Below, one piece after another: positions 7,192 to 57,560 of a stretch of 64,000 nt of DNA (within the stretch, counting starts at the first letter, position 1; each line of letters starts with the position of its first letter). Origin of the DNA: Candidatus Omnitrophota bacterium. Its GTDB lineage: Bacteria; Omnitrophota; Gorgyraeia; Ghiorseimicrobiales; Ghiorseimicrobiaceae. The translations under genes were made by a program, and so were the position numbers. Location: assembly GCA_030681595.1 (NCBI GenBank), contig JAUXSB010000055.1, positions 64,364 through 128,363 of the forward strand, in the 5' to 3' direction. The notes beneath the pieces were generated by a model. That model had not been told where the DNA came from. It saw only the letters and a list, made by a program, of their open reading frames with translations, and did not search any database.

Positions 7192-7712
7192 GCTTAAATA
7201 TTTTTAAAAATAGCCTAAGAAAAGGGAGAGTTACTGTTTCTCTTGATAAGGCTGCTTTTATCAGGCCAGCGGAAATTAACGAAATTGGCGAAGAGTTAAA
7301 GCGCTTGATCCATAAAAAATTCGCCCGCTCGTTTCATATCCGCGAAGTTGATACTGCCTCTTGTGGCGCTTGTGAATCGGAAATAATCGCCTGCTCTAAT
7401 CCTTTTTATGATATTCAGCGTTTTGGGATTGATTTTGTCGCTTCTCCCCGTCATGCCGATGCCTTGCTTGTAACTGGCCCGGTTTCAAAGAATATGGAGC
7501 TTGCGCTTAAGAAAACCTATGAGGCAGTGCCGGAGCCGAAATTTGTTATTGCCATGGGTGATTGCGCCAAAGGAGGCGCTCAATTCAGCGATTCGTATTA
7601 TACCTGCGGAGGGGTAGAAAATATCCTGCCTGTGTCTTTACATATTCCGGGATGTCCGCCTAATCCAACACAAATTATTTTTTGCTTGTTAGATTTTCTG
7701 GATAAAATTTAA
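7188..7712 (+). CDS. NuoB/HycG-like small subunit ([4Fe-4S] N2-type)
   Basis: Cys motifs CGAC, GDCAKGG and PGCPP match the NuoB/hydrogenase small-subunit signature. ATG overlaps the upstream stop. Confidence 0.85.
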   Translation: MSLNIFKNSLRKGRVTVSLDKAAFIRPAEINEIGEELKRLIHKKFARSFHIREVDTASCGACESEIIACSNPFYDIQRFGIDFVASPRHADALLVTGPVSKNMELALKKTYEAVPEPKFVIAMGDCAKGGAQFSDSYYTCGGVENILPVSLHIPGCPPNPTQIIFCLLDFLDKI

Positions 7713-7738
7713 TAAAAAAATAAAATAAAATTTATAGT

Positions 7739-12428: not shown

Positions 12429-12878
12429 ATGAAAGTAGGTATAAGTTTAGAGAATGAGAATGGATTATATAGTAATGTTTGCAAGCATTTTCAAGAGAGC
12501 AGCCATTTTTTTATTTTAGATATTGATAAAAATAAAATTGTCAGTAGTAGGGTTGTTCCGAATCATGTTCGGCATAATGGCAAAGAATATATAGTGGCCG
12601 ATGAGGTATTAAAATATAGAATTACCCATCTGATCGCAGATAATGTGGGGGTGGCTGCGCAGAAAAGATTCGTACAAACCAATGTTCAGGTATTTAAATA
12701 TTCAGGCAACGTAAAAGATGCCATTGATAATTTTTTTAAAAAAAATATGGGGCTTGCGCTTAAGAAAACCTATGAGGCAATGCCGGAGCCGAAATTCGTT
12801 ATTGCCACGGGCGATTGCGCCAAAGGGGGCGCTCAGGCGGACAATTTAGCGATTCGTATTATACCTGCGGAGGGGTAG
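12429..12878 (+). CDS. NifX/NifB-type dinitrogenase FeMo-cofactor-binding domain protein whose 3' end is fused in frame to a decayed copy of the hydrogenase small-subunit C-terminus
   Basis: MKVGISLENENGLYSNVCKHFQESSHFFILDID matches the NifX-like domain. From about 12744 the sequence is a near-copy of 7491..7712. Confidence 0.5.
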   Translation: MKVGISLENENGLYSNVCKHFQESSHFFILDIDKNKIVSSRVVPNHVRHNGKEYIVADEVLKYRITHLIADNVGVAAQKRFVQTNVQVFKYSGNVKDAIDNFFKKNMGLALKKTYEAMPEPKFVIATGDCAKGGAQADNLAIRIIPAEG

Positions 12879-12973
12879 AAAATATCCTGCCTGTGTCTTT
12901 ACATATTTCGGGATGTCCGCCTAATCCAACACAAATTATTTTTTGCTTGTTAGATTTTCTGCATAAAGCATAG
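12744..12973 (+). pseudogene. Degenerate duplicate of the 3' end of the NuoB/HycG-like gene; direct repeat of 7491..7712 with an 8 nt insertion that shifts the frame
   Basis: About 90% nucleotide identity to 7491..7712 by eye across ~225 bp. After the frameshift the other frame reads YYTCGGVENILPVSLHISGCPPNPTQIIFCLLDFL. Confidence 0.75.
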
Positions 12974-13089
12974 TCTCTAAGTAGAAAAAAGTCAATAAAA
13001 AGAGGAATTAGGCTATTTACATCTGGTTTGGATTGCGATAGTATTATTTCGCTTGAAGCAATAGGGAATTATGTCAGATTTTTCGGCTG

Positions 13090-28778: not shown

Positions 28779-28833
28779 CCAGAATTTATTTATAGCTGAA
28801 ATATTACCAAATAGTTAAGCAGTTCTGATACGA
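28779..28833. repeat. Family-1 intergenic repeat (full copy): cagaa..agaatttatttatagc...aaatagttaagcagttctgatac
   Basis: Near-identical to 43935..43992. Half-copies at 28291..28315, 29574..29605 and 36414..36430. Confidence 0.75.
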
Positions 28834-29483: not shown

Positions 29484-29880
29484 TCCGAAATAATTTGTAT
29501 TGTAACTCCTTTACGAGTTGAAACACATAAAGATGTGGTATAGTTATTTTTTAATTCCGAAAAAATTCAATATCAGAACTCAGAATTTATTTATAGCTTT
29601 AATACGAAGTAGCCCTTTAGGTAAGATTTTTCGGAGAGAAAGGGATGGTTAAATATAACCGTCCCTTTTTTGCTTAAAGTTAAGTTTGAGCGTGTTCCAA
29701 AATGGAACATGCTGCCACGGACGGGAAAGTCTATTATTTTTTAAATCCTTCGAAGAAAGCTCTCGTTTTTTAAATAGTCAAACTTAACAGAATAAAAGCG
29801 ATTCTTCTACTTTTTTTTGCCAGTTTTTGGTATAATGAAGTTTATTGTAGTCATGGTTGACTGTTTGGATAAGGGCGGTT

Positions 29881-30456
29881 ATGAAAAATAAAGCGGTTTA
29901 TATCATAGCAGGGCCAAATGGAGCGGGTAAGACGACTTTTGCTAAGTTATTTCTGCCTGACTATGTGAATTGTCCAAATTTTGTAAATGCTGATCTTATC
30001 GCTCAAGGATTAGCCCCGTTTGAGCCTCGCGCCGCAGCTATTAAAGCCGGCAAGCTCGTGCTGCAAGAAATCCATGAATATGCCAGACGTGGTTTTGATT
30101 TTGCTTTTGAAACGACATTGTCCGGTAAAACTTATGCAGGCTTGCTTGCAGAGTTAAAATCGAAAGGTTATGTGTTGCATCTTTTTTTTCTCTGGATTCC
30201 CAGTCCGGAATTAGCAATAGCCCGTATTAAAGATCGCGTCGCAGAAGGCGGGCATAATGTGCCTGCGGAAGACGTGCGGAGAAGATTCACTCGCGGTGTA
30301 AATAACTTTTTCAACCTATATGAGCCATTACTTGATTCGTGGATATTATTTGATAATTCAAAGGTAAAACCTATATTGATCGCGAAAAGACGAAACAGTC
30401 ACAGAGAAGTGATTAATGATAATTTATTTACAATGGTTCAAAGAAGCAAGAGGTAA
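29881..30456 (+). CDS. Zeta-toxin / COG4185-type P-loop kinase
   Basis: AVYIIAGPNGAGKTTFAK Walker A at the N-terminus. About 190 aa. The track ORF starts 24 nt upstream. Confidence 0.55.
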   Translation: MKNKAVYIIAGPNGAGKTTFAKLFLPDYVNCPNFVNADLIAQGLAPFEPRAAAIKAGKLVLQEIHEYARRGFDFAFETTLSGKTYAGLLAELKSKGYVLHLFFLWIPSPELAIARIKDRVAEGGHNVPAEDVRRRFTRGVNNFFNLYEPLLDSWILFDNSKVKPILIAKRRNSHREVINDNLFTMVQRSKR

Positions 30457-30637: not shown

Positions 30638-30760
30638 AAAAAGGGAATGGTTAAACACAGCCGCCCATTTTTTTGTTTCTCATTGGTTAATGAGGTTGGA
30701 AAATAGCCAAAAGAGAGTAAAATATGTAGAAGTTAGGAAGTTCTGTCACTGGTTTATTAT
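30638..30760. repeat. Family-2 repeat: hairpin with conserved loop (tggttaaacacagccg) plus about 80 bp of conserved downstream sequence
   Basis: Aligns by eye with 33202..33312. Shared blocks are aaaagggaNtggttaaNcacaNcNg, (g/t)gaaaatNg and aaaagagagtaNaat. A partial third copy lies at 29644..29700. Confidence 0.65.
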
Positions 30761-33202: not shown

Positions 33203-33240
33203 AAAGGGATGGTTAAGCACAACTGTCCCTTTTTACTTTT
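33203..33240 (+). terminator. Rho-independent terminator after catalase; member of a conserved-loop hairpin repeat family
   Basis: aaaaggga-tggttaagcacaactg-tccctttttactttt. Confidence 0.6.
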
Positions 33241-33831: not shown

Positions 33832-34124
33832 ATTGGGAATTATGTTGTAACTTATTATAATGATTTAAGTTACGCAGAAACGACACGGTTTTTCTTGCAG
33901 AGATGGGAAAAGGTTGAGGCATTTAAACACCCCCGAGGTGGCCGCAGGTCTCCTCGGGGGTGGCGAAGCGCGGTTAAGTAGGGATTAGATACGTGCTCTC
34001 GGAATTATTTCTTGGCTAACTTCTAAAGTTGAGGTCTGACCCCGTTTGCATATGTCCCCCGATTTTCGTAGTTAAGCAGTTTGATGTGAGGTTTTTAGCC
34101 TTGAGAATCTAGGAGAATTTTTTT

Positions 34125-35282
34125 ATGGAAATGGAAAGAGAAATACTAGTCAATAAGGAGGTATTGAAATGGGCCCGGGAAAGTAAGCGCCTCGAAATTG
34201 AGGACGTTGCTTATAAGCTTAAGCAAGATCCTGCACTTATCAAAGAGTGGGAGGAAGGTATTAGAGCACCTTCGTATGCACAACTGGAGAAATTGGCGTA
34301 TGATATTTACAAACGTCCACTGGTTGTTTTTTTCTTTAATGATGTTCCAGAAGAAAAGAACTTGAAAGCAGACTTTAGAACTTTACCAGAAGGGATCATT
34401 GATGCATTTAGTTCTGACTTAATCAAATATATAAGAGAAGCGAGAGATAAGCAATTTGTTTTAAGAGAGCTATTCCCTAGCGGAAACCCAAGTAATAAAT
34501 TTTTGCTAACTCGATTTCAACCCGATAAATCAAATCCAGAAAAGACCGCTCATGCTTTGAGAAACTTTCTTAAAATCTCATTTGAGGTGCAAAAAAGCTT
34601 TAAATCAGCAGAGGCAGCATATCAGCATTACCGAGACCTTCTTGCAGAATATGGTGTTTTTGTGTTTCAATACCCTATTGATCGAAATGAAGCTAGGGGT
34701 TTTTGTCTTTACGATGAAAATTTTCCCGTAATACTTGTTAGTTCTAAGGAGCGTGAAGCTAGTTCAAGAATATTTACTATTTTTCATGAGGTTGCGCATC
34801 TAATTTTTAAAACTAGTGGTATTACGACCTGGGATGATCAAATAGGCTTTAGAAATAAACAAAGTGAGGAAATAGAAGTTTTTTGTAATAAATTTTCTGC
34901 CGATTTTTTAGTTCCAAAAAGTTTTCTTATTGAACATTCTCTTGTCAAAAGTAAGAAAGGAAAAAGCTGGGAATTGGATGAGTTAAGAAAAATTGCCAAT
35001 GAACTTAATGTGAGTATTGAAGTAATATTTCGAAGGTTGTTAGATTTAGGATGGGCTGATAAGAAAGAATATGAAGCATACAGAACGCATCCTTACCAGA
35101 TACGGAAATTAACCGGTGGTCCAAGTTACGCCGTTAAAACAGTGTCTCAATTAGGATCTAGCTTTATTAGAGTAGTTCTAAATTATCTGTACAGCGGTAA
35201 AATTACACCGTATCAAGCGTCAGGCTATTTAAAAGTCAAGGCAAATAATATGGGTAAAATTGAAGCTATTGTTTTTACTTGA
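34125..35282 (+). CDS. XRE-HTH plus ImmA/IrrE (COG2856, DUF955) zinc metallopeptidase
   Basis: N-terminal HTH. HEXXH motif IFHEVAHLIF in the central domain. Confidence 0.75.
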   Translation: MEMEREILVNKEVLKWARESKRLEIEDVAYKLKQDPALIKEWEEGIRAPSYAQLEKLAYDIYKRPLVVFFFNDVPEEKNLKADFRTLPEGIIDAFSSDLIKYIREARDKQFVLRELFPSGNPSNKFLLTRFQPDKSNPEKTAHALRNFLKISFEVQKSFKSAEAAYQHYRDLLAEYGVFVFQYPIDRNEARGFCLYDENFPVILVSSKEREASSRIFTIFHEVAHLIFKTSGITTWDDQIGFRNKQSEEIEVFCNKFSADFLVPKSFLIEHSLVKSKKGKSWELDELRKIANELNVSIEVIFRRLLDLGWADKKEYEAYRTHPYQIRKLTGGPSYAVKTVSQLGSSFIRVVLNYLYSGKITPYQASGYLKVKANNMGKIEAIVFT

Positions 35283-35755
35283 GGATTATGAATAAATATG
35301 TATTTGATACTGGCGTCTGGGTGGTGCTCTTCCGACATTATCCCGAATCAACGTTTTCAGGATTATGGGAAAAATTTGATTTAATGGTTTCAGGTGGGCG
35401 CATACTTTCGTCATCTGAAGTTTTACGGGAGTTAAAATCATACGAGGATTTAATTTATCAGCAAGCTAAGGATATTGATCATGTATTTTTGAAGCCCTCT
35501 AGTGAGGAGTTAATAGTAATCAAGGATTTAGCAAATAAATATAAATATCTCGTGTCTGATCGAAATATTAATAATGGTTCACCAGTCGCAGATTGCCACG
35601 TGCTTGCTTTAGCAAAAGTAGTAGAAGGGACAGTTGTTACGACTGAGCGCTTTAAGCCAAATTCGCAGAAAATACCGAATATCTGTGATAAGCTGGGGAT
35701 AGGCTGTTTAGATTTACATAAATTTTTTGCGCAAGAGGAGTGGAAGTTTGTTTAG
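35279..35755 (+). CDS. DUF4411-like PIN-fold protein
   Basis: YVFDTGVW N-terminal acidic motif and SPVADCHVLALA block. ATGA overlap with ImmA. Confidence 0.55.
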   Translation: MRIMNKYVFDTGVWVVLFRHYPESTFSGLWEKFDLMVSGGRILSSSEVLRELKSYEDLIYQQAKDIDHVFLKPSSEELIVIKDLANKYKYLVSDRNINNGSPVADCHVLALAKVVEGTVVTTERFKPNSQKIPNICDKLGIGCLDLHKFFAQEEWKFV

Positions 35756-35843
35756 GGTTTTAGAAACACAACATTTAATTTATGATCTATCGGGACATAT
35801 AGAGACAAAGAATTATGATATTTGTTCCTCTGATTAAAAAGTC

Positions 35844-36398
35844 ATGCCCAAAATTGATTTTGCAGAAATAAAAGATCTATTATCTAAAGGACAATACCAA
35901 AAAGCTATGCTTAATACGCATGATTTTGTCCAGCTGGCTCTCTATCAAGTAATTATTTCTGCGTTATGGTTTTTAGGGGAGACCAAGAAGCTTCATATAT
36001 ATCTTCAAAAATATATGGGAACATTTAAGGTCTCTACTTTTAAATGCCCTGAGATTGAAGAGGCTTATCAGCTAGGTCTTATTTCAAAAAATGAGAAAGA
36101 TTTTATTAAAAAGCTAAAAAAATTTAGAGATTCGCAGGGTGTTGCGCATCATAGCATTTATTTTGATAAAGAACTCGAAGAAAATTTAGATAAAAAGAGA
36201 GAAGTGGAGAATTTTATATATGAAAGTGAAAAAATTATACCAATTTTATTAGCTAAATCTAATAAAATTGGTATAAGCCATATGCAGGAAGGTTTTAATT
36301 TGATAGAAAGCGGTAAAATAAAAGTGGGTGACATTATTAAATTCGGCCATTCTAAAGAAGATTTATGTAATATATTGAATCCCGGAAGCATTATCTAA
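35844..36398 (+). CDS. Hypothetical protein (184 aa), no recognisable domain
   Basis: ORF with an RBS. It sits between DUF4411 and the SIR2-like gene with 88 and 35 bp gaps. Confidence 0.35.
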   Translation: MPKIDFAEIKDLLSKGQYQKAMLNTHDFVQLALYQVIISALWFLGETKKLHIYLQKYMGTFKVSTFKCPEIEEAYQLGLISKNEKDFIKKLKKFRDSQGVAHHSIYFDKELEENLDKKREVENFIYESEKIIPILLAKSNKIGISHMQEGFNLIESGKIKVGDIIKFGHSKEDLCNILNPGSII

Positions 36399-36433
36399 TT
36401 CATTAATACCATTCCAAATAGTTAAGCATATCT

Positions 36434-37561
36434 ATGGAATCTAAACGTATATACATTCTTGGGGCGGGTAGTTCAATTGCGCATAGTAAAGGCGATTTTC
36501 CTTCTATTAAACAATTCTTTATTAAGGCCAGAGAGGAAGGCGCTGATATAAAGCAAGATTTCGGACAAATAGTAGCGTATATTAAAAAAATAACCGGAAG
36601 AAATATTGCAACTGGAAAAGCCATCTTAGATATCGAAAGCTTATTCACAAACCTTGAAATTGACATAGAAAAGAGGACTACGCCTACGTTACTTGAAATA
36701 AGGCAGCAGCTTCTTATGATTATTAAGAAAGTCCTTTATCTTAAAGAGAGAAAAATGCCTCGGTTAAATGGTGACTATAATAATTTTTCCAGATTATTAA
36801 ATGTATCTGATACCATTATTACCTTTAATTGGGATTTGTTACTAGATAATGTTATGGGGCGTGAAAGTACGCTGGGGGCAGGAGTGTCAGAAGCAGAAAA
36901 TGTTTCTTCTTGTCGACCGCAATTAATCGGTCAATATAACGAATTTATATATAACATATCTGCTTACAGTGAGCGTACTATAGGTTGTTTATCTCCCAAC
37001 TTACCCTATAATAAATGGAACTTAAAAAAAGGGGTTTATTTGAAGTTGCATGGTTCTATTGATTGGTTTTATTGTTTGAATGAAAAATGTAGAGCCGTAA
37101 ACAAAGTTTTTCCTTTGTTGCAACCGTTAGATAAATATTTTTGTTCAGAATGCCATGAGTCGCTCGAAACATTATTAATTCCTCCTGTTCTAAATAAGGA
37201 TTATCGACGTTCGCCATTCATTCGTAAAATTTGGAATATTGCAGGTAAAGAGCTTTCATCGGCTAGCGAAGTAATAATATGGGGGTATGGTTTGCCGCCA
37301 ACTGATTTTTATGCTACTTGGCTTCTACGACAAGCCAGAACTGATTTTCTTAAGAAACTTGTTATCATTAATCCACGTGTTATTTCAAAAAAGGGAAGAT
37401 TGCAAACTAGTTTTGTCCGAAAGATATACAACATTTTTCTTGGTGTAATAAAAAAAGGTGATTTATGTCTATATGAATCTTTTAGCGATTTCACGGAAGA
37501 AAAAGATGTATTAGTAAAATATGAGTTAGGGGATAAAAAAGAGGCTTATAAATCAATATGA
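36434..37561 (+). CDS. Stand-alone SIR2-like (sirtuin-fold) protein
   Basis: IYILGAGSS Rossmann start, ITFNWDLLLD (cf. TTNxD), LKLHGSIDW (HG motif), and the Zn ribbon CLNEKC...CSECHE. Confidence 0.65.
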   Translation: MESKRIYILGAGSSIAHSKGDFPSIKQFFIKAREEGADIKQDFGQIVAYIKKITGRNIATGKAILDIESLFTNLEIDIEKRTTPTLLEIRQQLLMIIKKVLYLKERKMPRLNGDYNNFSRLLNVSDTIITFNWDLLLDNVMGRESTLGAGVSEAENVSSCRPQLIGQYNEFIYNISAYSERTIGCLSPNLPYNKWNLKKGVYLKLHGSIDWFYCLNEKCRAVNKVFPLLQPLDKYFCSECHESLETLLIPPVLNKDYRRSPFIRKIWNIAGKELSSASEVIIWGYGLPPTDFYATWLLRQARTDFLKKLVIINPRVISKKGRLQTSFVRKIYNIFLGVIKKGDLCLYESFSDFTEEKDVLVKYELGDKKEAYKSI

Positions 37562-43934: not shown

Positions 43935-43992
43935 AGAACTAAGAATTTATTTATAACCTTAATATTACTAAATAGTTAAGCAGTTTTGACAC
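43935..43992. repeat. Family-1 intergenic repeat (full copy)
   Basis: cagaactaagaatttatttataaccttaatattactaaatagttaagcagttttgacac, aligned by eye to 28779..28833. Confidence 0.75.
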
Positions 43993-44069: not shown

Positions 44070-44588
44070 ATGAGCGAACAGTTTAAACATAATGATTCTT
44101 TACCTCATGTCTCAGCTGAGCAGGATGTGATGGCTTTGGTTAAAAAGATGCAACAGCAGTTGATCTCTTTAGAGAAGAAGATAGACATCTTGATCAACCA
44201 GTCTCAAGATAGGCCTTTTAGACAGAAGCCTTTTTCAAAACCTTTTCGGTCTTTCGGCCATCATCGTCGTCCCGAAAGAGAGCATGGTGATGCCTCCGAA
44301 GGAAAAAGCTTTGACCGCGCTCGCCATTTTGAGAAACGTCCTTACGGAGAAAAGAGAGGGTTTGGCTACAAGAAAGAGTCTTACGGTAATTATCGGGAAA
44401 GTAATTTTACCCCAGAGCGTCCTTTTAAGAAACGTTACGACCCAGAAAAGAGAGGGTTTGGCCGCAAGAGAGAGTCTTACGGTAATCCTCAGGAAAGTAC
44501 TTTTACCAAAGAGCATCATTTTGAGAAACGTTCCGGCCCAGAAAAGAGAGGGTTTGATCAAAAAAAGAAGCCGTTCCATCATAAGTAA
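44070..44588 (+). CDS. Basic, Cys-free repeat protein with E(K/R)RGFG repeats
   Basis: Four or more repeats of ...EKRGFGxKKESYGN.... pI very high. Possibly nucleic-acid binding. Confidence 0.4.
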   Translation: MSEQFKHNDSLPHVSAEQDVMALVKKMQQQLISLEKKIDILINQSQDRPFRQKPFSKPFRSFGHHRRPEREHGDASEGKSFDRARHFEKRPYGEKRGFGYKKESYGNYRESNFTPERPFKKRYDPEKRGFGRKRESYGNPQESTFTKEHHFEKRSGPEKRGFDQKKKPFHHK

Positions 44589-44832: not shown

Positions 44833-45004
44833 AAGAGGCGCCGACTGGCGCAAAATCTCCTGTTTTTAAGGCTAGGGGGAAGAGGTTGCTAAAAGATAGC
44901 AATGCGTTTTTATTGCCAACGTATTTGGTGTCAGGACTCGTTATAAACAAGACGCTTTATATAACTATCTGTAAATCAAAGGATCATGAAATAAATATTT
45001 CTGC

Positions 45005-45136
45005 AAGCCAGAGGGCAGTGGTTTGGCTTTCAATATAGCCACAAGCCACAAGCCAGAGGGCAGTGGTTTGGCGCGCAATTTGCCAAAGCCACAAGCCAGA
45101 GGGCAGTGGTTTGGCGCGCAATTTGCCAAAGCCACG
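45005..45136. repeat. Tandem array, about 2.7 copies, of a 43 bp unit each containing a short hairpin
   Basis: Unit aagccagagggcagtggtttggcgcgcaatttgccaaagccac. Two perfect copies at 45051..45093 and 45094..45136, one partial copy before. The unit contains the inverted repeat tttggc/gccaaa. Confidence 0.8.
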
Positions 45137-57289: not shown

Positions 57290-57560
57290 AGGGTGCCTAG
57301 GTTTTTTATTTTGGCCGGAAATTCTAGAAGGAATTTAAAATTATGCCTAAAATCTACATCCGTACCTTCGGATGGCCGTTGTCCAATTAACAGTAGCACG
57401 ATGCGCAGTCTGGCCGAGGCTGTAGTAGGCGATAGGCTATGGGCAATAGGCGATAGGAACGAGGCGAGAGGCCATAGGCAATAGGGACGAGGCGATAGGC
57501 TATGGGCAATAGGCAATAGGCAAAAACAAAAACCTATAGCCTCTCGCCTATAGCCTATTT
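57290..57560. repeat. Low-complexity ATAGGC-based tandem duplication with a downstream reverse-complement arm (large imperfect dyad)
   Basis: ggcgataggctatgggcaataggc occurs twice. The downstream sequence cctatagcctctcgcctatagcctat is the reverse complement of the ataggc units. Confidence 0.6.

What the first reader, a model, noticed from the sequence alone, without database searches (positions are those of the whole stretch)
34125..37561. HTH-ImmA/IrrE + DUF4411 (PIN-like) + unknown 184 aa protein + minimal stand-alone SIR2: four co-directional genes that look like a defence locus
The ImmA/IrrE metalloprotease (HEVAHL) with an N-terminal XRE HTH overlaps, by ATGA, a DUF4411-like PIN-fold gene. 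That pairing is recurrent and thought to be toxin/defence-like, with the protease acting as a signal-responsive regulator. Directly downstream are a 184 aa protein with no recognisable domain and a 375 aa SIR2-like protein. The SIR2 protein has the Rossmann start, the TFNWD and HG motifs and an intact Zn ribbon, but none of the partner domains (SLOG, TIR, pAgo, HerA) that define known SIR2 defence systems such as Thoeris, DSR, SIR2-HerA or SPARSA. A short SIR2 with an unknown small partner may be an uncharacterised NAD-depleting system. The 35 bp gap before the SIR2-like gene carries a family-1 repeat fragment.
Basis: partly seen in the sequence, partly recalled or inferred. Interest (0 to 1): 0.7.

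Follow-up and report, generated by a model that had tools for sequence, protein, structure and literature searches.

The report
Defence islet: three independent small modules
The four genes are real and sit in a variable, low-GC defence hotspot, but they are three unrelated modules rather than one system: a known protease-regulator plus PIN nuclease pair, a solo HEPN RNase-like protein, and a partnerless 375-residue SIR2 enzyme from an uncharacterised family.

Summary
All four ORFs exist at the stated coordinates, and each has homologues elsewhere.

- **g1+g2:** g1 (HTH + Peptidase_M78, HEVAH) and g2 (DUF4411, PIN-like) form a conserved two-gene cassette. It recurs at about 80% identity next to restriction-modification systems. 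This architecture is already published and resembles RosmerTA.
- **g4 family:** About 250 clusters, all single-domain proteins. No neighbour is conserved in 80 genomes, and small ORFs checked in the 40 closest loci gave none either.

The region has 34% GC against 45-49% in the flanks. In the closest relative, a restriction-modification cassette and an IS element occupy the same site.

The best reading is a defence hotspot stacking three autonomous abortive-infection-type effectors. g4 is an untested candidate for a single-protein NADase. All functions are inferred.

The parts
34069..34078 (+). Core TAGTTAAGCA of a recurring upstream motif, 46 nt before the g1 start. It may be a promoter or operator element.
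   Evidence: Five copies in the window, all on the + strand, against 0.2 expected. Aligned.
34125..35282 (+). g1: 385 aa fused XRE-type HTH (res 14-58) + ImmA/IrrE Peptidase_M78 (res 175-305, HEVAH at res 221 = nt 34785-34799). RmrA-like regulator/antitoxin.
   Evidence: Pfam HTH_3 5e-6 and Peptidase_M78 3e-12. PADLOC RmrA 2.3e-19 over res 9-377. Copies 81% identical in L085-L090.
35288..35755 (+). g2: 155 aa DUF4411 PIN-like nuclease (an alternative TTG start at 35279 gives 158 aa). Predicted toxin/effector of the g1-g2 cassette.
   Evidence: DUF4411 4.4e-23 and PIN 5e-4. Invariant D7, E44, E48, D102, E120 in 12 homologues. Directly downstream of a Peptidase_M78 gene, with an HTH hit in all but L091, in all 7 loci retrieved.
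35844..36398 (+). g3: 184 aa solo HEPN-fold protein, with the R95-DSQGVA-H102 motif at nt 36126-36149. Predicted RNase effector.
36235..36276 (.). Perfect 18-bp inverted repeat with a 6-nt loop inside the g3 coding sequence. Meaning unknown.
   Evidence: Absent from the three g3 homologue genes.
36414..36433 (+). 20-nt copy of the CCAAATAGTTAAGCA... repeat family, filling the end of the 35-bp g3-g4 gap and ending 1 nt before the g4 ATG.
   Evidence: Family D5, 90% identity to the reference copy. Also.
36434..37561 (+). g4: 375 aa stand-alone SIR2-fold protein. Motifs: LGAGSS nt 36458-36475; TFNWD (N132, D134) 36821-36835; H206-G 37049-37054; zinc ribbon C214/C219/C237/C240 37073-37153; IPPVLNK in place of the sirtuin FGE loop 37178-37198.

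Best explanation
Window 34.1-37.6 kb is a small, horizontally acquired defence islet. It lies in a variable hotspot just upstream of a conserved TolC-HlyD-MacB efflux operon. It stacks three autonomous modules that are unrelated in their evolution.

**(A) g1+g2.** This is a RosmerTA-like, three-component-type toxin-antitoxin/defence cassette. The fused HTH-ImmA/IrrE protein is inferred to repress the operon and hold the DUF4411 PIN-like nuclease in check. A phage- or damage-derived cue acting on the metalloprotease domain would then release the nuclease, which would cleave RNA and arrest growth.

**(B) g3.** This is a solo HEPN protein of the AbiU2/Abi_C type. It is inferred to be a latent dimeric RNase that switches on during infection.

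**(C) g4.** This belongs to an uncharacterised family of about 370-residue, single-domain SIR2 enzymes. The family keeps every NAD-binding and catalytic motif and the ancestral sirtuin zinc ribbon, but has lost the acyl-lysine (FGE) loop. It has the helical small domain seen in defence SIR2s. It is inferred to be a self-contained NAD+ hydrolase, autoinhibited by its small domain and activated directly by an infection cue, with no partner protein.

**Shown:** gene existence, domain and fold identity, residue conservation, independence of the three modules, compositional anomaly and variability of the site.

**Inferred:** every biochemical activity, every trigger and the anti-phage role.
For: **Modules are independent**
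- tblastn of g1, g2 and g3 against 80 genome loci carrying g4 relatives gave no hit.
- No neighbour family recurs next to g4 relatives. No small ORF within 700 bp recurs either, in the 40 closest loci.
- Immediate upstream neighbours are unrelated: DUF5647, ATP-grasp, flavodoxin, ParE and others.
- g3 homologues sit in three different contexts, and none includes g1, g2 or g4.
- The g1-g2 pair is kept intact in 7 of 7 loci, with different downstream genes.

**Defence setting**
- g1-g2 copies lie beside type I, type ISP and type III restriction-modification genes.
- g4 relatives lie beside SduA_C (Shedu), Mrr_cat, PLDc_2 plus an integrase, methylases and nSTAND1.
- Islet GC is 0.34 and GC3 0.25-0.35, against 0.45-0.49 and 0.45-0.52 in the flanks.
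- The relative L101 has the efflux operon at 83-89% identity, but carries RadC, a C5-methylase, Vsr and an IS3 transposase at this site.

**g1-g2 identity**
- Pfam and PADLOC hits.
- The architecture is published (PMC5499597), as is the ImmA antitoxin role in RosmerTA (PMC10440598).

**g3 identity:**

**g4 identity**
- Fold.
- Residue conservation.
- 20 of 53 members touch SIR2_2 against 3 of 53 for SIR2. 43 of 53 touch PADLOC defence SIR2 models.
- All listed family members are single-domain proteins.
Against: - No experiment exists. No g4 family member, g3 homologue or this g1-g2 pair has been tested.
- Many g4 relatives have housekeeping neighbours (tRNA synthetase, RNR, DXP synthase, aminotransferase), so enrichment in defence islands was not quantified.
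- g4 retains a zinc ribbon, a feature of true protein-modifying sirtuins. That ribbon is reported absent from SIR2-HerA and ThsA SIR2 domains (PMC11472057).
- No g4 or g3 relative was found in the phage collection. The plasmid collection, searched with g4 only, held only distant SIR2 proteins.
- g3's Pfam HEPN hit is below threshold (13 bits against 22).
- g3 and g4 are only 35 bp apart and no terminator was detected between them. Co-transcription in this genome cannot be excluded.
Confidence: 0.62

Rival explanations
1. The four genes are a single four-component defence system. The ImmA/HTH protein would regulate PIN, the 184 aa protein and SIR2 together, and the 184 aa protein would be the sensor partner of the SIR2.
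For: The genes are co-directional and tightly packed, with gaps of 5, 88 and 35 bp. They share low GC. No terminator was detected between them.
Against: No co-occurrence was found in any direction across 80 + 4 + 7 loci. g3 has only 3 homologues, against about 290 for g4 in the same database. The g1-g2 cassette recurs with other downstream genes. A promoter-like repeat copy sits before both g1 and g4.
Confidence: 0.04
2. g4 is not an immune NADase. It is a divergent protein-modifying sirtuin (a deacylase or a SirTM-like ADP-ribosyltransferase) with a regulatory or stress role, and it happens to lie next to defence genes here.
For: - The zinc ribbon lies 8 residues after the catalytic His, as in CobB and Sir2Af1, and is invariant.
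- Several relatives have housekeeping neighbours.
- A catalase lies 1 kb upstream in the window.
Against: - The FGE acyl-lysine loop is replaced by (L)NK, and the cofactor-loop FR is absent (manual motif comparison).
- Only 3 of 53 members hit Pfam SIR2, and weakly, against 20 of 53 for SIR2_2 and 43 of 53 for PADLOC defence SIR2.
- The best structural matches, with the longest alignments (260 against 209 residues), are defence SIR2s.
- Distribution is patchy: 129 hits in 185,579 species genomes across many phyla.
- No macrodomain, GcvH-L or LplA2 partner is present, as SirTM operons have.
Confidence: 0.2
3. g3 (HEPN) and g4 (SIR2) form a lineage-specific two-effector operon that arose recently in this genome, even though neither family normally pairs with the other.
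For: The gap is 35 bp with no terminator. These two genes have the lowest GC (0.30 and 0.34).
Against: No other locus shows the pair. The closest g4 homologue outside this genome is only 60% identical. Both families function alone elsewhere. The repeat element in the gap suggests a separate cassette boundary or promoter.
Confidence: 0.06

Closest known systems
HTH-DUF955(ImmA/IrrE) + DUF4411.1 three-component toxin-antitoxin architecture (Matelska et al. 2017, PMC5499597); RosmerTA (RmrA/RmrT) defence systems (PMC10440598)
   Same: A fused N-terminal HTH + M78 zinc peptidase gene sits immediately upstream of a small toxin gene. The DUF4411 hit is well above threshold, and RmrA models match g1 over its full length. 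The cassette sits among restriction-modification genes.
   Different: g2 matches no PADLOC model, RmrT included. No DUF4411-type pair has been tested for defence, as far as the papers read here show.
Solo HEPN abortive-infection proteins: AbiU2 / Abi_C families, and HepS of the Gifsy-1 prophage (PMC13043305, PDB 9oik)
   Different: Sequence similarity is below every Pfam cut-off. g3 has a distinct C-terminal extension (res about 156-184). Only four sequences of this kind exist in 5.8 billion. Trigger and target are unknown.
SIR2 subunit of SIR2-HerA (Nezha) defence systems (PDB 8w9l, 8yhx, 8j4u; PMC11472057)
   Different: No HerA gene is adjacent here, and no conserved neighbour of any kind accompanies relatives. 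g4 has an invariant C4 zinc ribbon, which that paper reports as absent from SIR2-HerA and ThsA SIR2s. Identity is 15-20%, and no HMMER hit to any PDB sequence was found.
Single-protein SIR2 defence NADases DSR1/DSR2 and Avs5; Thoeris ThsA; SPARSA
   Different: Each of these has a large sensor or partner: the MID and C-terminal domains of DSR2 (about 1000 aa in all), a STAND NTPase, SLOG plus ThsB, or a short pAgo. g4 is 375 aa with nothing but the SIR2 fold, and all listed relatives are 330-430 aa.
Classical sirtuins (CobB, Sir2Af1, Sir2Tm)
   Different: The FGE loop is replaced by (L)NK. The helical small domain is much larger. Pfam SIR2 does not match, and hhalign against CobB aligns only the GAGxS start.

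Membership tests
HTH-DUF955 + DUF4411.1 cassette (PMC5499597) | DUF4411 (PF14367) match above the gathering score | tested here: met
   82.3 bits against a cut-off of 23.5, full-length 1-159/159.
HTH-DUF955 + DUF4411.1 cassette (PMC5499597) | Gene lies directly downstream of a fused HTH + Peptidase_M78/COG2856 gene | tested here: met
   g1 has HTH_3 + Peptidase_M78. The junction is a 5-nt gap or a 4-nt overlap. Six of 7 homologue loci show the same arrangement; in the seventh, L091, the upstream gene has only a Peptidase_M78 hit.
HTH-DUF955 + DUF4411.1 cassette (PMC5499597) | Conserved acidic PIN active-site residues | tested here: met
   D7, E44, E48, D102 and E120 are invariant in 12 sequences.
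RosmerTA (RmrA + RmrT) | RmrA: HTH + zinc-peptidase antitoxin | tested here: met
   PADLOC RmrA model PDLC03949, E 2.3e-19, res 9-377 against 2-330/363.
RosmerTA (RmrA + RmrT) | Adjacent gene matches a recognised RmrT toxin family | tested here: not met
   g2 has no PADLOC hit at E<=0.1. PIN-like partners of ImmA nodes are, however, noted in PMC10440598.
RosmerTA (RmrA + RmrT) | Toxicity neutralised by the antitoxin; phage protection | not testable with these tools
   Requires expression and phage assays.
HEPN superfamily | All-alpha HEPN fold | tested here: met
HEPN superfamily | Rx4-6H catalytic motif | tested here: met
   R95-DSQGVA-H102 is invariant in all 4 sequences. It lies inside the stretch of P0124 that matches HEPN_AbiU2.
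HEPN superfamily | Pfam HEPN-clan model above its cut-off | tested here: not met
   HEPN 13.1 bits against 22. Homologue HEPN_AbiU2 24.6 against 26.8, and Abi_C 17.7 against 24.
HEPN-MNT toxin-antitoxin | Adjacent minimal nucleotidyltransferase gene | tested here: not met
   The neighbours are DUF4411 and SIR2. The neighbours of homologues carry no NTP_transf hit on record.
SIR2 superfamily (fold level) | Rossmann SIR2 fold with GAGxS, N/D and HG motifs | tested here: met
Pfam SIR2_2 (PF13289) | Model match at or above the gathering score | tested here: not met
   g4 has no hit at E<=1. 20 of 53 relatives hit weakly, best E 3.4e-4.
Classical sirtuin / CobB deacylases | Pfam SIR2 (PF02146) match | tested here: not met
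   No hit for g4. 3 of 53 relatives hit, best E 0.059.
Classical sirtuin / CobB deacylases | C4 zinc ribbon after the catalytic His | tested here: met
   C214, C219, C237 and C240 are invariant in 214 of 214 members. The position is comparable with CobB. Metal binding itself was not tested.
Classical sirtuin / CobB deacylases | FGE acyl-lysine-binding loop | tested here: not met
   CobB has LRPHVVWFGE; g4 has LLIPPVLNK, with N254 in 179 of 214 and K255 in 213 of 214 members. The registration was done by hand and not verified structurally.
SIR2-HerA (Nezha) | Adjacent HerA (DUF87) ATPase gene | tested here: not met
   The window neighbours are HEPN and OEP/TolC. No family recurs next to g4 relatives in 75 loci. 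No HerA family appears among the families shown for 118 neighbours of the 35 closest loci scanned; only the top 25 families are listed, which include every family hitting two or more neighbours.
Thoeris (ThsA/ThsB) | SLOG domain fused to SIR2, plus a TIR ThsB gene | tested here: not met
   g4 is 375 aa, all accounted for by the SIR2 fold. No TIR or SLOG hit was found in g1-g4 or the flanking genes.
DSR1/DSR2, Avs5, SPARSA | Large C-terminal sensor, STAND NTPase, or short pAgo/APAZ partner | tested here: not met
   Length is 375 aa. All listed relatives are at most 430 aa and match as a single SIR2 unit. No such neighbour was found.

The most novel reading that the evidence does not exclude
The g4 family would be a previously unrecognised single-protein anti-phage NADase. 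It has about 250 clusters at 50% identity and is spread patchily over Omnitrophota, Desulfobacterota, Planctomycetota, Nitrospirota, Acidobacteriota and other phyla. It would be the smallest self-sufficient SIR2 immune effector, sensing infection through its own variable helical small domain, its 29-114-residue insertion or its zinc ribbon. It would also be an evolutionary intermediate that keeps the sirtuin zinc ribbon while having lost the protein-substrate loop.
Probability: 0.35. Interest if true: 0.55.

Novelty: new variant of a known kind. Interest (0 to 1): 0.42.

Why it matters
If the g4 family is an autonomous NADase, SIR2 immune effectors would not need a dedicated sensor domain or partner. 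That would give a compact model for asking how a bare SIR2 fold is kept off and then switched on. It would also link classical zinc-ribbon sirtuins to the zinc-less defence SIR2s.

The result also corrects an attractive but wrong "four-gene system" reading. Tight, co-directional packing in a defence hotspot here reflects stacking of independent cassettes.

The g1-g2 pair and the HEPN protein are ordinary members of known kinds. They add little beyond annotation, although g3 gives a fold and motif to an ORFan.

Tried and rejected
1. **One four-gene system.** Rejected by the absence of synteny in all three directions.
2. **A small conserved partner of g4 missed by ORF calling.** Six-frame segments of at least 25 aa within 700 bp either side of the 40 closest loci gave no recurrent family.
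3. **Upstream neighbours of g4 relatives being cryptic HEPN proteins.** Pfam scans show unrelated families.
4. **Sequence-level link of g4 to solved structures.** The profile search found nothing at E<=1. hhalign against CobB aligned only the GAGxS start.
5. **g4 and g3 on phages, g4 on plasmids.** No phage hits were found. The plasmid collection was searched with g4 only and held just distant SIR2 proteins on Rhizobium plasmids and one partial hit to a hypothetical protein on a Cohnella plasmid.
6. **Finding g2 relatives in metagenome contigs with the single sequence.** This found nothing. It was solved through the protein search and contig look-ups instead.
7. **Known RNA families in the region.** Only a sub-threshold miRNA-model hit on the g3 hairpin, which is chance.
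8. **tRNA, integrase or flanking direct repeats that would define an integrated element.** None were found.
9. **Sigma-70 promoter and terminator scan.** No more sites than in shuffled sequence, so it is uninformative.
10. **Homology of the DNA 3' of g3 between loci, to explain the shared TAGTTAAGCA.** The flanks do not align.


Full report
**Observation**

- **g1** matches HTH_3 (res 14-58) and Peptidase_M78 (res 175-305) and carries HEVAH at residue 221. PADLOC RmrA models match it over its full length (2.3e-19).
- **g2** matches DUF4411 end to end (82 bits against a cut-off of 23.5) and PIN weakly.
- **The g1/g2 junction** is not an ATGA overlap. g1 ends at TGA 35280-35282. g2 begins either at TTG 35279 or, as in the NCBI call and every homologue, at ATG 35288.
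- **The 35-bp g3-g4 gap** does carry a copy of a short repeat (36414-36433). Its core TAGTTAAGCA occurs five times in the window, always on the + strand and upstream of genes, against 0.2 expected.

The window comes from a Candidatus Omnitrophota MAG.

**Module A (g1+g2)**

The protein search returned 20 DUF4411 relatives. In all seven contigs recovered for three of them, the DUF4411 gene sits directly after a Peptidase_M78 gene of 349-384 residues, with an HTH hit in all but L091. Copies 80% identical to the window's are embedded among other defence genes:

- a type ISP/MmeI-like enzyme and an SMC-like ATPase (L085);
- a type I restriction-modification system (L088-L090);
- Fic plus a type III-like methylase and helicase (L091).

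The gene downstream of the pair differs between loci and is never g3 or g4. D7, E44, E48, D102 and E120 of g2 are invariant.

This architecture is in print. Matelska et al. describe DUF4411.1 genes downstream of fused DUF955(ImmA)-HTH genes as putative three-component toxin-antitoxin systems (PMC5499597). ImmA-type antitoxins define the RosmerTA defence systems, and PIN-like partners are noted for them (PMC10440598).

The mechanism I give is inferred from those families. The HTH would repress, the protease domain would respond to a cue, and the PIN nuclease would be released.

**Module B (g3)**

g3 has no hit in Pfam, PADLOC or NCBIfam at the usual thresholds. It has only three homologues among 5.8 billion proteins.

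- TT1696, HEPN toxins of HEPN-MNT pairs, the AbiA HEPN, HepS, RnlA and LsoA.

At relaxed thresholds g3 touches Pfam HEPN (E 0.11). Homologue P0124 reaches 24.6 bits on HEPN_AbiU2 (cut-off 26.8) and also hits Abi_C.

The homologues lie in three unrelated settings. One is next to a ParB-methylase and a terminase-like gene, and none is near a SIR2, DUF4411 or MNT gene.

So g3 is a solo HEPN protein. Its nearest functional analogues are single-gene HEPN abortive-infection proteins such as AbiU2 or HepS (PMC13043305). RNase activity is inferred.

**Module C (g4)**

About 290 relatives were found, nearly all 340-410 residues, and none has a precomputed Pfam domain. An exhaustive profile search gave 250 clusters at E<=1e-30 and 3,288 at E<=1e-10. 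All listed members are single-domain proteins.

The AlphaFold model is confident (pLDDT 90.4, pTM 0.90).

- Foldseek's best hits are the SIR2 subunit of E. coli SIR2-HerA (7e-9), followed by classical sirtuins, ThsA and DSR2.
- At sequence level, 20 of 53 members weakly touch SIR2_2 and only 3 of 53 touch SIR2. 43 of 53 touch PADLOC defence SIR2 models, and a few touch the single-gene candidates PDC-S21 and PDC-S25.

In 214 full-length members, N132, H206, G207 and all four cysteines (C214, C219, C237, C240) are 100% conserved, and D134 is conserved in 212 of 214.

I compared the motifs by hand with E. coli CobB. GAGxS, NxD, HG, the zinc ribbon starting eight residues after the catalytic His, G(T/Y)S and the late Asn are all present. 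The FGE acyl-lysine loop is replaced by (L)NK.

The SIR2-HerA structural paper states that the zinc finger and FGE loop are absent from bacterial defence SIR2s (PMC11472057). g4 is therefore a hybrid: it has a defence-type helical small domain, retains the zinc ribbon and lacks FGE.

Variability is concentrated in the small domain, a 29-114-residue insertion (res about 140-200) and the C-terminal tail.

**No partner for g4**

- Among 80 species-representative genomes with a g4 relative, tblastn finds no g1, g2 or g3 relative within 7 kb.
- All-against-all clustering of 924 neighbouring ORFs finds no family that recurs beside the gene.
- Clustering of short six-frame segments around the 40 closest loci finds none either.
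- Neighbours mix housekeeping genes with defence or mobile genes. The latter include methylases, nSTAND1, CopG, DUF499, PD-(D/E)XK, REase-ARP and patatin.
- Individual loci add SduA_C immediately downstream in one, Mrr_cat/NA-iREase plus GIY-YIG in another, and PLDc_2 plus an integrase-bounded island in a third.

Its other criterion (grouping with CobB) is not met.

**The locus as a whole**

The islet has 34% GC (GC3 0.25-0.35). The catalase upstream and the TolC-HlyD-MacB operon downstream have 45-49% GC (GC3 0.45-0.52).

A metagenomic relative keeps the efflux operon at 83-89% protein identity. Immediately upstream it carries RadC, a C5-cytosine methylase, an unknown 375-residue protein, Vsr and an IS3-family transposase instead. 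A more distant relative has an ECF sigma factor and metal-resistance genes there.

The site is thus a variable hotspot that collects mobile and defence cargo. No tRNA, integrase or flanking repeats delimit the islet.

**Verdict**

The proposed unit is wrong, because these are three independent cassettes.

Two of them are members of known kinds. The third, g4, represents an uncharacterised, fairly large family of minimal zinc-ribbon SIR2 proteins. It is a plausible but untested single-protein NADase.

- Confidence that the modules are independent is high, about 0.9.
- Confidence that g4 acts in defence as an NADase is moderate, about 0.35-0.5.
- The main rival is a divergent protein-modifying sirtuin, about 0.2.

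All activities are inferred.

Noticed in passing
window 28291, 28809, 34069, 36416, 43970 (+ strand): The motif AAATAGTTAAGCAG (core TAGTTAAGCA) recurs only on the + strand, 5-90 nt upstream of start codons (5 copies against 0.2 expected). Copies at 28781-28831 and 43942-43992 share 51 nt at 86% identity. It may be a lineage-specific promoter or operator element. The copy before g4 would imply a leaderless or near-leaderless transcript.
   Followed up: partly
window 36235-36276: A perfect 18-bp inverted repeat with a 6-nt loop lies inside the g3 coding sequence. It is absent from the three g3 homologue genes, and its purpose is unknown.
   Followed up: partly
L101:869-6977 (relative of the window, upstream of its TolC gene): The equivalent site in the closest relative carries RadC, a C5-cytosine methylase, an unannotated 375 aa protein (probably the cognate endonuclease), Vsr and an IS3 transposase. 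The spot upstream of the efflux operon is therefore a variable hotspot.
   Followed up: yes
L085:5476-6642 and L088:5510-6625: Copies of the g1-g2 cassette are followed by an unannotated 388/371 aa protein. Its C-terminus has a D...EVK motif that looks like a PD-(D/E)XK nuclease, and its middle region looks PUA/EVE-like. It may be another defence gene.
   Followed up: no
window 29857-30456: A zeta-toxin/AAA_33-like kinase gene (Zeta_toxin E 2e-11) lies 4 kb upstream of the islet. No obvious epsilon-type antitoxin was examined.
   Followed up: no
window 29639-29670, 30641-30672, 33203-33234: A family of AAAGGGA...TCCCTTTTT hairpins lies after genes, including the catalase. They look like intrinsic terminators with a shared sequence.
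   Followed up: no
window 44322-44556 and 44998-45128: 96-nt tandem repeats lie inside ORF 44070-44588, which encodes a repetitive basic protein with EKRGFG units. 43-nt tandem repeats lie just downstream.
   Followed up: no
window 7487-7736 and 12740-12997: A segment of about 250 nt is duplicated at 88-93% identity, 5.25 kb apart. It probably reflects paralogous genes.
   Followed up: no
window 57427-57520: A run of 7-nt-period repeats (AGGCGAT / AGGCTAT / GGGCAAT).
   Followed up: no
L081:4550 / L082:3858: The same 10-mer TAGTTAAGCA overlaps the stop codon of the g3 homologue in an unrelated metagenome. The DNA beyond the stop does not align with the window, so this may be coincidence or a cassette boundary signal.
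   Followed up: partly
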